Below, piece by piece: positions 45,081 through 48,590 of a stretch of 64,000 nucleotides of DNA. The stretch comes from Thermodesulfobacteriota bacterium (GTDB lineage Bacteria > Desulfobacterota > Desulfobulbia > Desulfobulbales > JAGXFP01). Below the pieces are notes generated by a model that was given only the letters and a program-made list of their open reading frames with translations, was not told the origin of the DNA and did not search any database. The first letter of the stretch is position 1. Each line of letters starts with the position of its first letter. Location of the stretch: assembly GCA_039714535.1 (NCBI GenBank), contig JBDLJC010000006.1, forward strand, positions 18,925 through 82,924, in the 5' to 3' direction. The position numbers were made by a program, and so were the translations under genes.

Positions 45081-45127
45081 ACTTATACCCCTCAATGGGC
45101 ACTGAAAAGAGTGCCCTTGTGGTGTAA
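45081..45127. repeat. 47 bp TA-TACC palindromic mini-element, copy 2
   Basis: ACTTATACCCCTCAATGGGCACTGAAAAGAGTGCCCTTGTGGTGTAA, a near copy of 33606-33653. Confidence 0.7.
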
Positions 45128-45149
45128 TATCGTTTATAGTCAATCCATT

Positions 45150-46934
45150 ATGTCATATCTCGTTCTAGCCAGGAAATGGCGTCCCCTTAATTTTGATCAG
45201 GTTGTAGGGCAGGGTCCGATAGTCCGGATCTTGCGCAATGCCATCAGTCGGAACCGGGTGCCGCATGCCATGTTGTTCAGCGGGGTGCGGGGAGTTGGCA
45301 AGACGACCCTGGCCCGGATCATGGCTAAGGCCCTTAACTGTGAACGACAGGGGGGCGAACTCCCCTGTAATGAATGTTCTTCCTGTCTGGAAATCATGGC
45401 CGGCACGGCCGTAGATCTTCACGAAATCGATGGTGCGTCAAATCGTGGTATCCAGGAAATTCGCGACCTGAAAGAGAACATTCGTTTTCTCCCTACCCGG
45501 GGCCGTTATAAAATCATGATCATTGATGAGGTCCACATGCTCACCAATGAGGCCTTTAATGCCCTGTTGAAGACCCTGGAAGAGCCGCCTGATCATGTCA
45601 TCTTCATGTTCGCCACCACCGAAATACACAAGATTCCCGTAACGATTCTGTCTCGTTGCCAGCGCTATGAGTTGAAAAGAATCCCTTTTGCCGAACTTTT
45701 TGGGTTCTTCAAAAAGATTGCTGAGGCCGAAAAAACTACGATTTTCGATAGCGCCCTGGAGATGATTGCCAGGGAGGCGGCCGGTAGTGTTCGCGATGGC
45801 TTGAGTCTGCTCGACCAGGTTTTCTCCTTCGGCGGTGAGCAGATGACCGATGAGGATGTCAGCGAGGTTCTGGGCTTGGTCGGCAGTCAGGTTTTCGAGC
45901 AACTGGCGGCGGCCCTGCTTGCTGAGGACCTTGGTGCGGCTCTGAAGATTCTCGACCAGGTCTGTACGGCCGGGGCTGATCTGAAAAGATTTACCGCCGA
46001 CCTGCTCCAGTTTATTCGTGGCCTGATTGTTTGCCGGGTCAGCAAAGCCCCGGCCGAATTGCTTGAAGGTTCTGATCGGGAGATTGCCAGTATGACCGAA
46101 ATGGCAGGCCGGCAGAGCAGCGAGACCCTTTATAGTCAGTTTGATCTTCTCTTAAAAGGGGCGGCTGAGATGCAGTTTGCGCCCCATCCTCGCCTGGTCC
46201 TGGAAATGACCTTTGCCAAGATCGTCCAGGCCGGCCAGTTGGTGCCGGTGTCCTCCTTGATTGCCAGGATTGATGAGTTGCTGGCGGCGGGCGGGGGTGA
46301 AGCACCGCCGATAAGCCAGACGGCGGCAATCCCGACTCCCGAAAAAAAAAAGCCTGAACCGCTAGCGCCAACCCCTGTCGCTCCGGTCCGGCTTGCCGAA
46401 CCGGCGGTGCCATTTAAGGTGCAAAGCCAACATGGGGTCGTTCCTCCGGATGTCGAAACGGATGAACCTGGTCCTGGTTTGGAGGAGGCGGTTATGGAGT
46501 CGACTGCGGCGGCGCCCAAGGATATTCGCAAGGATTGGGATGATTTCGTGGCCTACGTCAAGGATCGCAAGGACTGGATGGCCCAGATTGTCAAGATGTG
46601 TGATTCCGTCCGGCTCCATGACGGTGAGTTGTTGATGAGGTATGATGACGCCAGCCAGTGCCCGATCCTGCAACAGTCTGACAATCTCAAGATTCTGACA
46701 GAGTTCGCCCAAGATTTTTTTCAACAGGAATGGCGGGTTAAGGTAAGTGCCAATAGCGCTGGTGGCAGCCAAGGCGGCGGCGAAGGGACAGCGGGGCTCC
46801 AGGAGGAGAGAGTGGCGCTGCGCCGGGACCCTCTGGCCCTGTTGGTTGCCGAGGTCTTTAATGGCTATGTCGGTGATGTCCGGACCGGCCCCCGTAGCCG
46901 AGAGATTAAAGCCGGGATGGAAGAGGAGAAATAA
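45150..46934 (+). CDS. dnaX: DNA polymerase III subunits tau/gamma
   Basis: MSYLVLARKWRP, GVRGVGKTT, CNECSSC, EIDGASNRG, IIDEVHML, SRCQ. ATG at 45150. Confidence 0.95.
   Translation: MSYLVLARKWRPLNFDQVVGQGPIVRILRNAISRNRVPHAMLFSGVRGVGKTTLARIMAKALNCERQGGELPCNECSSCLEIMAGTAVDLHEIDGASNRGIQEIRDLKENIRFLPTRGRYKIMIIDEVHMLTNEAFNALLKTLEEPPDHVIFMFATTEIHKIPVTILSRCQRYELKRIPFAELFGFFKKIAEAEKTTIFDSALEMIAREAAGSVRDGLSLLDQVFSFGGEQMTDEDVSEVLGLVGSQVFEQLAAALLAEDLGAALKILDQVCTAGADLKRFTADLLQFIRGLIVCRVSKAPAELLEGSDREIASMTEMAGRQSSETLYSQFDLLLKGAAEMQFAPHPRLVLEMTFAKIVQAGQLVPVSSLIARIDELLAAGGGEAPPISQTAAIPTPEKKKPEPLAPTPVAPVRLAEPAVPFKVQSQHGVVPPDVETDEPGPGLEEAVMESTAAAPKDIRKDWDDFVAYVKDRKDWMAQIVKMCDSVRLHDGELLMRYDDASQCPILQQSDNLKILTEFAQDFFQQEWRVKVSANSAGGSQGGGEGTAGLQEERVALRRDPLALLVAEVFNGYVGDVRTGPRSREIKAGMEEEK
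46342..46357 (+). other. Putative dnaX frameshift/slippage signal (A10G followed by a -1 frame TGA)
   Basis: GAA AAA AAA AAG CCT GA contains A_AAA_AAG. The -1 frame stops at 46355-46357 and the +1 frame at 46363-46365. Confidence 0.7.
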
Positions 46935-47242
46935 TGGATATTCAGAAATTAATGGAACAGGCCAAGGGTTTTCAGGAAAAAATGGCCAGCATGCAGGAAG
47001 AACTTGCCAATAAACAGGTAAGCTCTACCGTTGGCGGCGGCATGGTTTCGGTAACGGTCAATGGCCGCAGCGAGATTGTTGACCTGAAAATTGAACCGGA
47101 GGTCATCAACCCGGATGATCCTCAGATGTTGCAGGACCTGGTTAAGGCAGCGGTTAACGATGCCATGAAGAAGGCTGCGGAGATGGGTAAATCCGAGATG
47201 GCCAAACTGACCGGTGGGCTCAATATCCCCGGCCTTTTTTAA
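46934..47242 (+). CDS. ybaB: YbaB/EbfC nucleoid-associated protein
   Basis: VGGGMVSVTVNG, IEPEVI, LQDLVKAAVNDA; located between dnaX and recR. Confidence 0.93.
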   Translation: MDIQKLMEQAKGFQEKMASMQEELANKQVSSTVGGGMVSVTVNGRSEIVDLKIEPEVINPDDPQMLQDLVKAAVNDAMKKAAEMGKSEMAKLTGGLNIPGLF

Positions 47243-47253
47243 GTGGAGTTTTT

Positions 47254-47533
47254 GTAACTATGCAGTGTGACAACCGGGGTTCCAGCCTGTATTTTAAAAG
47301 GAACATAAAAAATAATGTTGAACATCGAACGTCCAACGTTGAACATCGAATAAGGAAGCCGCTTCGCTTTAGCTGAATATCGAAAGTACCACATTCAAAA
47401 TTCGATGTCGGAGTCTTCGCTACCTGAATGTTGGGTGTTCGATGTTCAATTATTATCATGCTACAACCATAAAGCCTTAACAGTTACATTCCGAGGTTTT
47501 CGTCGGTTTTTCGTTATACACCTGAATAGTTAC
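47254..47533. mobile_element. 280 bp MITE with 12 bp TIRs and a 9 bp target-site duplication
   Basis: Left end GTAACTATGCAG, right end CTGAATAGTTAC (one mismatch). GGAGTTTTT flanks both sides (47245-47253 and 47534-47542). No ORF. Confidence 0.85.
47311..47454. repeat. Heptamer-based palindrome inside the MITE
   Basis: AATAATGTTGAACATCGAAC...GTTCGATGTTCAATTATT arms built from GAACATC/CAACGTT-like 7-mers. Confidence 0.7.
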
Positions 47534-47544
47534 GGAGTTTTTGC

Positions 47545-48147
47545 ATGAATGTTGTCCCTCCCGCTCTGGCCCGGCTGATTGATGATCTGAATCGTCTGCC
47601 CGGCATCGGTAAGAAAACCGCGACTCGGCTGGCCCTGCATATCCTGCGGCGGCCGCCCGTTGAGGCCCACGACCTGGCCCACGATATCGCCAATCTGCAC
47701 GAGGCCATTAATCTCTGTTCCAATTGTTTTGCCTTCTCCGAGAGCGATCCGTGCTTGATCTGCGGTGATCCGGGTCGGGATCCCGGCTTGATCTGCGTTG
47801 TTGAAGGTCCGGCCGACTTGATGGCCATTGAGAAGGTTGCCTCATTCAAGGGCCAATACCATATTCTCCATGGGGTTTTTTCGCCGATGGACGGAGTTGG
47901 CCCTGCCGAGATCCGGATAGATGCTCTGATGAGTAGGGTGCGGAGGCAGGGCGTTGCCGAGGTGCTGCTCGCAACCAGTTCAACGGTGCCAGGTGAGGCG
48001 ACGGCTGCCTATCTGGCCAGCCGGCTGCAGTCTCTGCCGGTCAAGGTTACCAGGTTGGCCTGTGGAATCCCGATGGGGATGGATATCAAGTATGCCGATG
48101 AACTGACCTTGGCCCGGGCCATTGAAGCACGTGAGGAGACCGGGTAG
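47545..48147 (+). CDS. recR: Recombination mediator RecR
   Basis: LPGIGKKTATRLA, CSNC...CLIC zinc finger, ICVVEGPAD, GEATA, YADELTL. Confidence 0.95.
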   Translation: MNVVPPALARLIDDLNRLPGIGKKTATRLALHILRRPPVEAHDLAHDIANLHEAINLCSNCFAFSESDPCLICGDPGRDPGLICVVEGPADLMAIEKVASFKGQYHILHGVFSPMDGVGPAEIRIDALMSRVRRQGVAEVLLATSSTVPGEATAAYLASRLQSLPVKVTRLACGIPMGMDIKYADELTLARAIEAREETG

Positions 48148-48385
48148 GGTGGGGGCAGCTTCTGTTTGCGAGAATGGTGCAGACGAATGTTTGGTAATTA
48201 TTAATTATCATCAGTGGCTAACCTGCCTGGCTGTTTCAGGACCACTTCTTAAGTGGCTCCGGCCTTGATTTATTCTTGACAGGAAAGGAGATTATTGTTA
48301 ATTGATTTCCCCTTAGCTGTTTCGGGATTATAGCTGGTTCATTTGCCTGGCAGATGGTAAACTTGATCCCAAGTTGGTCTTAAAT

Positions 48386-48462
48386 AGGCGCGTAGCTCAG
48401 TTGGTTAGAGCGCTTGCTCGACACGCAAGAAGTCGGCGGTTCGAATCCGCCCGTGCCTACCA
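48386..48462 (+). tRNA. tRNA-Val(GAC)
   Basis: AGGCGCG acceptor stem, CTTGC-TCGACAC-GCAAG anticodon arm, GGTTCGAATCC, CCA end. Confidence 0.95.
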
Positions 48463-48590
48463 TTTTTTATTGAGATGTATTGATGTTTAATGGTCGCGGT
48501 CTTACGCAGACCAGGATATAGGCAGGTTGGCTCAGCCAATGTGCTTATTTTTTTTTAATTATATAAATTTATCTGCAGGTGGATTGGCTG

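What the first reader, a model, noticed from the sequence alone, without database searches (positions are those of the whole stretch)
47245..47547. MITE inserted exactly into the recR ribosome-binding site and duplicated it
Seen: removing the 280 bp element and one GGAGTTTTT restores ybaB-TAA-GT-GGAGTTTTTGC-ATG-recR, a tightly coupled junction. The 9 bp duplication is the SD itself, so recR keeps an intact RBS. Established: 9 bp duplications are made by several DDE transposase families. Inference: targeting SD sequences would let the element enter essential operons harmlessly while uncoupling or retuning downstream translation.
Basis: partly seen in the sequence, partly recalled or inferred. 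Interest (0 to 1): 0.7.

Follow-up and report, generated by a model that had tools for sequence, protein, structure and literature searches.

The report
MITE in the ybaB-recR spacer
A 280-bp gene-less mobile element really did jump into the 13-base gap between ybaB and recR and copy recR's ribosome-binding site, but this is an ordinary MITE insertion: the gap is so short that any tolerated insertion must copy that site, and the element family shows no preference for such sites.

Summary
Observation confirmed. A 280-bp non-coding element (47254-47533) has 12-nt terminal inverted repeats (GTAACTATGCAG / CTGAATAGTTAC). It is flanked by a perfect 9-bp direct repeat, GGAGTTTTT (47245-47253 and 47534-47542). 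It separates ybaB from recR.

Marine-sediment metagenome contigs carry the predicted empty site (…TTTTTTAAGT-GGAGTTTTTG-T-ATGAATG…). Four congeners have a tight 11-nt junction, and the closest species has the same filled site.

The element belongs to a MITE superfamily with GTAACTRTTCAG ends. Exact ends occur in 151 of 401 genomes of the order, up to 174 per genome. Eighteen members with a clear duplication give 8 bp in 17 cases and 9 bp here. These duplications are 77% A+T, and only 2 of 18 contain a Shine-Dalgarno core, so SD-targeting is not supported.

In a 13-nt spacer, any viable 9-bp duplication must include the SD. The pattern is therefore geometry plus selection.

The element drifts at about the neutral rate and its interior is mosaic. 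No autonomous partner was found; the IS66 family (GTAA ends, 8-bp duplications) is only a weak lead.

Side observations:
- Other MITE families hit the same junction independently in other genera.
- The interior carries an opposed GAACATY-heptad hairpin that also occurs in other phyla.

Verdict: new member of a known kind, modest interest.

The parts
45111..46934 (+). dnaX (clamp-loader tau/gamma), first gene of the operon; its stop overlaps the ybaB start
   Evidence: ORF list; Pfam DNA_pol3_delta2 2.8e-45 and DNA_pol3_gamma3 1.7e-24. The true start may lie a few codons downstream of 45111.
46934..47242 (+). ybaB/ebfC (102 aa), stop TAA at 47240-47242
   Evidence: Pfam YbaB_DNA_bd 1.4e-34
47245..47253 (+). 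Left copy of the 9-bp target-site duplication GGAGTTTTT. This SD copy is now orphaned.
   Evidence: D5. In the closest species it has decayed to AGAGTTTTT while the right copy is intact.
47254..47533 (.). 280-bp non-autonomous element (MITE), inserted as one unit
   Evidence: TIRs (I5). The duplication is found only at the outermost ends; the inner pair 47254-47487 has none. Orthologous copy in G007. Related copies at G000 C1:65173-65407, C62 and C28. Indels against G007 are not multiples of 3, so it is non-coding.
47254..47300 (+). Left outer module. It starts with the TIR GTAACTATGCAG and is followed 47 nt later by a second, degenerate end motif (GGAACATAAAAA at 47301; GTAACATAAAA in other copies).
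   Evidence: The same 'end motif, 46-47 nt, end motif' layout occurs in other family members.
47318..47449 (.). Interior 'core': opposed arrays of GAACATY heptads (arms 47318-47340 and 47427-47449) around a ~75-nt centre that contains CCACATTCAAAATTCGATGT
   Evidence: I1 and I4. There are 6-9 core copies in G000. It is inverted relative to the shell in C62, L047 and L049. It occurs in other MAGs and phyla. RNA fold -86.5 kcal/mol, z = -3.4.
47488..47533 (+). Right outer 46-nt module ending in the TIR CTGAATAGTTAC. It is preceded by an inner end motif, CCTTAACAGTTAC (47475-47487).
   Evidence: D2. The same module occurs at G000 C21, C39, C62 and C34.
47534..47542 (+). Right copy of the duplication GGAGTTTTT. 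It is the working recR Shine-Dalgarno sequence (GGAG 47534-47537, 7 nt before the ATG).
   Evidence: Conserved unchanged in G007. It is a single copy in the empty-site contigs.
47545..48147 (+). recR (200 aa)
   Evidence: Pfam RecR_HhH, RecR_ZnF, Toprim_4 and RecR_C; 39 of 41 relatives have the ortholog

Best explanation
A non-autonomous DNA transposon (MITE) of the 'GTAACTRTTCAG-end' superfamily was pasted by a staggered-cut (DDE-type) transposase supplied in trans. It landed in the 13-nt ybaB-recR spacer (TAA-GTGGAGTTTTTGC-ATG) of an ancestor shared with the nearest species.

Repair of a 9-nt stagger duplicated GGAGTTTTT. The downstream copy still gives recR a GGAG 7 nt before its ATG. The upstream copy is functionless and free to decay.

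Because the spacer is so short, only insertions whose duplication includes the SD leave recR translatable. The 'perfect hit on the RBS' therefore reflects which insertions could survive, not what the transposase recognises. The family's real target preference is A+T-rich 8-mers.

The insertion is tolerated and drifts neutrally, and its interior is reshuffled by recombination with sister elements.

Shown: the insertion, the duplication, the empty site, the family and its targets. Inferred: that recR is still made from read-through operon mRNA using the right-hand SD, and that the 300-nt structured spacer abolishes any ybaB-recR translational coupling.
For: Anatomy: 12-nt TIRs and a perfect 9-bp direct repeat.

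Empty sites:
- Congeners G001, G002, G004 and G005 have stop-11 nt-ATG.
- An X5 metagenome contig reads CCCGGCCTTTTTTAAGT|GGAGTTTTTG-T-ATGAATGTTGTCC.
- X4 reads TAAGTGGAGTTTTAA|ATG and X2 reads TAAGTGGAGTTT-AA-ATG.

Orthologous filled site in G007 (RecR 97% identical), with left repeat AGAGTTTTT and right repeat GGAGTTTTT.

Family:
- 18 exact end motifs in G000 against about 3 expected (my estimate; counts).
- Exact 15-mer ends in 151 of 401 genomes and 48 of 83 genera. The reversed-pattern control gave 1 hit.
- 18 members have perfect duplications against 0 of 432 controls. 17 are 8 bp and 1 is 9 bp. They are 77% A+T in a 50% GC genome.

Neutral drift: recR third codon positions are 86% identical between G000 and G007. 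The alignable parts of the element are 81-86% identical, with many indels.

Mosaic interior: G007 has two variants of the same insertion, with and without the core. X2 has the same flank and TIR start followed by a different module, and it lacks depth on 47264-47310 while covering 47452-47545.

A sister MITE sits in the 19-nt dprA-topA spacer (TSD AAAACGGA on the gene strand), showing that short operon junctions tolerate these elements.
Against: - No transposase or full-length IS with these ends was found in G000, in its contig-end repeats, or in about 170 fetched loci, so mobilisation in trans is inferred.
- This copy's duplication is 9 bp, whereas the 17 other members give 8 bp.
- There are no expression data for this organism. 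The only RNA-labelled run barely contains it, so read-through and use of the right-hand SD are untested.
- Two further events put a duplication over an SD-like purine stretch: dprA-topA here, and an unrelated MITE at recR in G034 with TSD TTCAYAAGG. Some local preference for RBS-proximal DNA therefore cannot be fully excluded.
Confidence: 0.85

Rival explanations
1. SD-targeting MITE. The transposase recognises Shine-Dalgarno-like sequence, so the family systematically enters operons at ribosome-binding sites and duplicates them.
For: The duplication here is SD plus spacer. A sister element lies in the dprA-topA junction with its TSD 10 nt from the ATG. A G007 copy (L047) has the same GAGTTTTT to the left of its TIR. 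An unrelated MITE in G034 duplicated TTCAYAAGG at recR's SD.
Against: 16 of 18 duplications lack any GGAG/GAGG/AGGA on either strand. Examples are ACAAGATT, TCAATTTA, AGCTAAAC, AATAAAAA and ATATGTTT. Positions relative to starts are scattered, mostly 25-40 nt or more than 100 nt. Other copies of the G034 family have GATCAYCT, CGGCAAAAG, TCCTGAAA and TTCCCGCGA. Spacer geometry explains the SD cases.
Confidence: 0.06
2. Exapted regulatory insert. The element is kept because its long hairpin, or a promoter in its ends, uncouples recR from dnaX-ybaB or tunes recR (processing site, attenuator or internal promoter).
For: The insert is retained in two species and in several sediment populations. It forms a stable predicted structure, -86.5 kcal/mol with z = -3.4. 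One sigma-70-like site lies at 47267-47295. The T-rich tail of the hairpin is on the antisense strand, so sense read-through is favoured. The same junction is expanded independently in G006, G003, G034 and G024.
Against: Divergence is about neutral, and the interior is lost or replaced in allelic variants. The promoter-like count equals the chance expectation, 1 found against 0.9. There is no Rfam match. The hairpin shows no strand bias of G-U pairs, 171 against 191. Empty alleles coexist in nature.
Confidence: 0.12
3. Not a transposition. The repeat and insert arose by local duplication or recombination, or the insert is ancestral spacer DNA that relatives lost.
For: Junction sequences in the four empty congeners (for example TGA-GGGCGCCTTAA-ATG) differ from the reconstructed site.
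Against: Metagenome contigs carry the exact reconstructed single-copy site. The element has paralogs elsewhere with their own duplications. Its TIRs are shared by an order-wide family.
Confidence: 0.02

Closest known systems
Chunjie MITE of Geobacter uraniireducens Rf4 (Chen et al. 2008, Genetics; as summarised in PMC3184786 and PMC10969869)
   Same: A 178-235-bp, A+T-rich, strongly folding MITE with TIRs and 9-bp direct repeats. [quoted passage not shown] The host is a related anaerobic 'deltaproteobacterial' lineage.
   Different: Chunjie has 21-bp TIRs, and its sequence could not be compared because the paper is not held. No heptad-array core or tandem end modules are reported for it. Here the insertion lies in a 13-nt intercistronic spacer and duplicates the SD.
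IS66-family insertion sequences
   Same: Ends begin with GTAA, and duplications are 8 bp. Both were verified here on four complete IS66 copies of the same order with TIRs GTAAGCG… or GTAACCGTC… (a fifth had GTAA ends but no clear duplication). Published IRs are GTAAGCGTCCGG… and GTAACCGTCCGGGCA (PMC12888890).
   Different: Similarity stops after GTAAC. No DDE_Tnp_IS66 hit was found in G000, nor any full-length one in its genus (one 45-position fragment in G004). None was found in MITE-rich complete genomes such as G210. None of 30 IS66 loci carries the GTAACTRTNCAG end.
BrickBuilt MITE of Porphyromonas gingivalis (PMC4596501)
   Same: A MITE whose interior is a tandem-repeat array of variable length between 'leader' and 'tail' subunits with small inverted ends. 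It is always intergenic.
   Different: BrickBuilt has a 23-nt unit in one orientation. Here the units are 7-nt, in two opposed arrays that form a hairpin around a conserved centre. The host phylum is different.
Intercistronic repeats in operons (REP/BIME, ERIC, Correia/NEMIS, MIRU)
   Same: Small structured repeats that sit between genes of one operon and can alter mRNA stability, processing or coupling (reviewed in PMC3184786 and PMC10969869).
   Different: These are different sequence families with different insertion signatures. From my own knowledge, Correia duplicates TA and REPs give no duplication. Here the duplication is 8-9 bp and the ends are GTAACT.

Membership tests
MITE (miniature inverted-repeat transposable element) | Short (under about 600 bp) and non-coding | tested here: met
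   280 bp. Only mechanical ORFs overlap it. Indels against the G007 ortholog are 11, 3, 6, 16, 7 and 1 nt, which breaks any frame.
MITE (miniature inverted-repeat transposable element) | Terminal inverted repeats | tested here: met
   GTAACTATGCAG / CTGAATAGTTAC, 11 of 12 (I5). The same ends occur on sister elements.
MITE (miniature inverted-repeat transposable element) | Target-site duplication directly flanking the TIRs | tested here: met
   Perfect 9 bp. 18 members have perfect duplications of 8 bp or more, against 0 of 432 offset controls.
MITE (miniature inverted-repeat transposable element) | Multiple dispersed copies | tested here: met
   This subfamily is low-copy: one other near-full copy plus fragments in G000, and more in G007 and G003. 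The TIR superfamily occurs in 151 of 401 genomes, up to 174 exact ends per genome.
MITE (miniature inverted-repeat transposable element) | Empty (unoccupied) orthologous site | tested here: met
   4 congeners. Exact single-copy site in X5, X4 and X2 contigs.
MITE (miniature inverted-repeat transposable element) | Cognate autonomous IS with the same TIRs | tested here: inconclusive
   None was found in G000 (no TIR pairs 0.7-6 kb apart with a duplication). Contig-end repeats belong to other IS types. None was found in 20 regions of complete MITE-rich genomes. MAGs often lose IS copies.
IS66-derived MITE | GTAA termini and 8-9-bp duplication | tested here: met
   GTAAC ends; 17 duplications of 8 bp and 1 of 9 bp. 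Four IS66 copies of the order show GTAA ends plus 8-bp duplications.
IS66-derived MITE | TIR similarity to an IS66 member beyond the first bases, and an IS66 transposase in the host | tested here: not met
   No match beyond GTAAC. No PF03050 hit in G000; only a 45-position fragment in G004 among its congeners. PF03050 is also absent from many MITE-rich genomes.
   2 of 18 duplications contain GGAG/GAGG/AGGA on either strand. A+T content is 77%.
REP/RAYT or IS200/IS605-type hairpin element | No target duplication; hairpin ends; Y1 transposase | tested here: not met
   Clear 8-9-bp duplications. The Y1 transposase was not searched for.
Known structured RNA (Rfam) | Match to a curated covariance model | tested here: not met
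   Only a tRNA at 48386-48459 matched within 46900-48500 at E<=1.

The most novel reading that the evidence does not exclude
The GTAACTRTTCAG-end elements may be an undescribed MITE superfamily spanning the whole order.
- Their ends are modular: two end motifs lie 46-47 nt apart on one side.
- Their interiors are swapped by recombination.
- One interior is an opposed GAACATY-heptad hairpin with a conserved 20-nt centre. It also occurs on its own and in other phyla (Bacteroidota), and it is very abundant in sediment DNA and in an RNA-labelled library.

If the family also prefers the A+T-rich stretch just upstream of start codons, it would repeatedly remodel operon junctions. This would include the ybaB-recR junction, which at least three MITE families have hit independently.
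Probability: 0.3. Interest if true: 0.5.

Novelty: new member of a known kind. Interest (0 to 1): 0.3.

Why it matters
For this locus the result closes the question. The striking 'RBS duplication' needs no special targeting mechanism, because a 13-nt spacer leaves no other viable outcome.

It is a clean natural example of how a tightly spaced (and probably translationally coupled) operon junction can absorb 290 bp of structured DNA and keep the downstream gene's SD. Filled, empty and mosaic alleles coexist in nature.

The wider value lies in the family:
- It is a very widespread MITE superfamily in sulfate-reducer-type sediment bacteria, and I found no description of it.
- Its transposase is unknown.
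- It carries a cross-phylum heptad-array hairpin of unknown role.

Tried and rejected
- Rfam scan of 46900-48500 at E<=1 found only a tRNA.
- Sigma-70 and terminator scans gave counts equal to chance.
- IS66 as partner:
  - PF03050 gave no hit in G000 and only a 45-position fragment (G004) in the genus.
  - 30 IS66 loci of the order lack the TIR.
- Contig-end analysis found collapsed IS families with ends GAGCCTTTTGCAAAA, GAGTTATGATCAAAAG, GGTAGATTCAAG, TGACCGTATGCC and others. None has GTAACT ends.
- A search for TIR pairs 0.7-6 kb apart in all held DNA found none.
- 20 'unpaired' ends in complete genomes all turned out to be short MITEs.
- A strand-bias test for an RNA hairpin in the core gave 171 G-U pairs on one strand and 191 on the other, and the top strand was more stable in 12 of 26 copies. 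There is no signal.
- Inserts at the same junction in G006, G003, G034 and G024 are not homologous to this one.
- Literature searches for the TIR and heptad sequences returned only unrelated primers.
- The Chunjie paper itself is not held.
- RNA evidence: the single RNA-labelled run holds almost none of this organism.

Full report
**1. What is there.**
The window carries dnaX (45111-46934), ybaB (46934-47242) and recR (47545-48147) on the + strand. Pfam confirms all three.

Between the ybaB stop (TAA, 47240-47242) and the recR ATG lie 302 nt. Of these, 280 nt (47254-47533) begin GTAACTATGCAG and end CTGAATAGTTAC, an 11-of-12 inverted repeat. They are bracketed by GGAGTTTTT at 47245-47253 and 47534-47542. 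The right-hand repeat places GGAG 7 nt before the ATG.

**2. It is an insertion with a target-site duplication.**
In 41 related genomes recR is nearly always preceded by ybaB. Four congeners (G001, G002, G004, G005) have stop-11 nt-ATG.

The closest species, G007 (RecR 97% identical), has the same element at the same place. There the left repeat is AGAGTTTTT and the right repeat is GGAGTTTTT. So the insertion predates that split. The upstream, now useless SD copy has begun to decay, while the downstream copy is conserved.

Contigs of public marine-sediment metagenomes supply the exact empty site:
- One X5 contig reads …CCCGGCCTTTTTTAAGT|GGAGTTTTTG-T-ATGAATGTTGTCC….
- An X4 contig reads TAAGTGGAGTTTTAA|ATG.
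- An X2 contig reads TAAGTGGAGTTT-AA-ATG.

The 9-bp repeat is therefore host sequence that was duplicated.

**3. Family.**
Within the genome the whole element has one other near-full relative (C1:65173-65407, 78% identity) and several partial ones. More copies occur in G007 and G003, and none in the congeners with empty sites.

The 12-nt end is shared with other small elements of 107-210 bp in this genome. The exact 15-mer GTAACTRTTCAGCAG occurs in 151 of 401 genomes of the order, covering 48 of 83 genera, with up to 174 copies in one genome. The reversed-pattern control gave one hit in all.

Across everything I held, 18 members have perfect flanking repeats, against 0 of 432 offset controls. 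Seventeen repeats are 8 bp and only this copy is 9 bp. They are 77% A+T in a genome of 50% G+C.

An unrelated MITE family in G034 shows 8 and 9 bp within one family. The length difference here is therefore unremarkable.

**4. The SD-targeting idea.**
Only 2 of 18 duplications contain GGAG, GAGG or AGGA on either strand. Typical ones are ACAAGATT, TCAATTTA, AGCTAAAC, AATAAAAA and ATATGTTT. Insertion points lie 2, 10, about 25-40 or more than 100 nt from the next start codon, or next to stop codons.

The apparent precision at recR follows from geometry. The empty spacer is 13 nt with GGAG at positions 3-6. A 9-nt staggered cut that leaves an SD in front of recR must start at or before position 3, and it then necessarily duplicates the whole SD. 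Cuts further right would leave the element between the SD and the ATG and would be lost by selection. This step is my inference from the sequence.

A sister element in the 19-nt dprA-topA spacer makes the same point (C16:60573-60751, TSD AAAACGGA on the gene strand, 10 nt from the ATG). So does an independent, unrelated MITE at recR's SD in G034 (23-nt TIRs, TSD TTCAYAAGG, at least 9 copies). Short operon junctions can take these elements provided the duplication carries the SD.

**5. Passive or functional?**
Between G000 and G007, recR is 93.4% identical in DNA and 86.1% at third codon positions. The alignable shell of the element is 81-86% identical, and the interior is full of indels.

The interior is also mosaic:
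- G007 holds two alleles of the same insertion, one with the central core and one with only a direct array of about nine heptads.
- An X2 contig has the same flank and the same first bases of the TIR, followed by the module typical of the 107-bp sister MITEs.
- X2 depth is absent on 47264-47310 but present on 47452-47545.

This looks like neutral drift plus recombination among elements that share ends.

The RNA fold is stable (-86.5 kcal/mol, z = -3.4), but promoter-like and terminator-like hits equal chance expectation and Rfam has nothing. No usable RNA data exist for this organism. I therefore infer, but have not shown, that recR is translated from read-through operon mRNA using the right-hand SD, and that any direct ybaB-recR coupling is lost.

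**6. Who moved it?**
No autonomous element was found:
- No TIR pairs 0.7-6 kb apart occur in any held DNA.
- Contig-end repeats reveal other collapsed IS types, none with GTAACT ends.
- 20 regions around seemingly unpaired ends in complete genomes were all short MITEs.

The IS66 family is the only lead. Four complete copies in this order have GTAAGCG… or GTAACCGTC… ends and 8-bp duplications, and published inverted repeats agree (PMC12888890).

Against this lead, the similarity stops after GTAAC. PF03050 finds no transposase in G000 and only a 45-position fragment in one congener. It is also absent from many MITE-rich genomes. None of 30 IS66 loci carries this end. I give IS66-type mobilisation about 20%.

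**7. Anatomy beyond the finding.**
The element is composite:
- (i) It has outer 46-47-nt modules, each starting with the end motif and followed by a second, inner copy of that motif. This layout recurs in sister elements.
- (ii) It has a core of opposed GAACATY heptad arrays around a centre containing CCAYATTCAAAATTCGATGT.

The core occurs 6-9 times in G000, in either orientation relative to the shell. It also occurs in Thermodesulfobacteriota and Desulfobacterales MAGs and, in recognisable form, in a Bacteroidales MAG and in Mucilaginibacter conchicola.

Its heptad arm reaches roughly 10-40 times the flanking depth in sediment DNA runs and very high depth in an RNA-labelled run. Contig depth of a tandem repeat is a poor measure, though.

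G-U pairs show no strand bias (171 against 191), so there is no evidence for a strand-specific RNA. Notes by other first-stage readers in other genomes mention the same heptads. I found no literature on them.

**8. Comparison with what is known.**
This is a textbook MITE insertion. The closest precedent is Chunjie in Geobacter uraniireducens: 178-235 bp, 9-bp direct repeats, A+T-rich, inserted in an operon without disrupting it. BrickBuilt in Porphyromonas gingivalis is a precedent for a tandem-repeat interior. REP, ERIC, Correia and MIRU are precedents for structured repeats between cistrons.

All MITE criteria that could be tested were met, except the cognate IS. The TIR superfamily and the heptad core appear undescribed in the searchable literature.

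**9. Verdict.**
It is a new member of a known kind, with interest about 0.3. The most novel surviving reading concerns the order-wide modular family and its cross-phylum hairpin core, not the recR insertion itself.

Noticed in passing
window 47318-47449; also G000 C1:65236, C62:9529, C2:74657, C11:41002, C1:69172; L059-L079: Opposed arrays of GAACATY heptads flank a conserved centre (…GAATAAGGAAGCCGCTTCGC… / CCAYATTCAAAATTCGATGT), forming a repeated hairpin unit. It is found inside and outside the MITE shell, in either orientation. It occurs in several Thermodesulfobacteriota MAGs and also in a Bacteroidales MAG and in Mucilaginibacter conchicola. It has very high contig depth in sediment DNA and in an RNA-labelled run. 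G-U pairs show no strand bias. Its function is unknown.
   Followed up: partly
order-wide; examples L131-L180: The exact end GTAACTRTTCAGCAG occurs in 151 of 401 genomes of the order, with up to 86+88 copies in G012. It mostly appears as ~107-bp inverted pairs with a 46-47-nt extra end module on one side and 8-bp A+T-rich duplications. No transposase partner was identified and no literature match was found.
   Followed up: partly
L027 (G034) 1230-1500; L015 (G006) 943-1244; L016 (G003); L029 (G024): The ybaB-recR junction is expanded independently in other lineages. G034 has a 225-bp MITE (23-nt TIRs, TSD TTCAYAAGG over the SD, at least 9 copies). G006 has a ~200-bp multi-copy repeat. G003 and G024 have 178-nt and 165-nt inserts of unknown nature. 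None is homologous to the window's element.
   Followed up: partly
G000 C16:60573-60751 (outside the window): A 179-bp sister MITE sits in the 19-nt spacer between dprA and topA. Its 8-bp duplication (AAAACGGA on the gene strand) lies 10 nt before the topA ATG. This is a second DNA-metabolism operon junction occupied in the same genome.
   Followed up: yes
G007 contigs C79:1-300 and C275:15349-15564 (L014, L051): This MAG holds two versions of the same filled junction, one with the core and one with a direct array of about nine heptads. The bin therefore mixes strains, and the interior of the element turns over quickly.
   Followed up: yes
metagenome run X2, contig over window 47210-47259: The contig has the same flank and the same TIR start, but then continues GCTCAGCAGCACCCCATCCGGAGTCTACGC, the module of the 107-bp sister MITEs. 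This is either a mosaic allele or a second hit at the identical site.
   Followed up: partly
G000 contig ends (for example C1_R, C3_L, C9_L, C18_L; C2_L, C8_L, C13_L): Groups of 7-9 contig ends share identical 99-nt termini ending in …TTTTGCAAAAGGCTC. Other groups end in …GATCATAACTC, …GAATCTACC, …CATACGGTCA and similar. These are several collapsed multi-copy IS families missing from the assembly, and none has GTAACT ends.
   Followed up: partly
L059, L063, L066, L079 (records titled Promethearchaeota archaeon JL_US_07_7): Low-coverage contigs of an 'archaeal' MAG carry core elements almost identical to those of Thermodesulfobacteriota MAG241. Bacterial contamination of the bin is more likely than an archaeal host.
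   Followed up: no
G000 C21:24779-24810 and L170 101-130: Left and right TIRs lie directly back to back (GTAACTGTTCAGGGGCACTCCTGAACAGTTAT; GTAACTATTCAGCAGTACCTGAATAGTTAC). These are 30-32-bp 'TIR-only' hairpins, possibly internal-deletion remnants.
   Followed up: no
window 48386-48459: A tRNA gene lies about 240 nt downstream of recR (Rfam RF00005, 68 bits).
   Followed up: no
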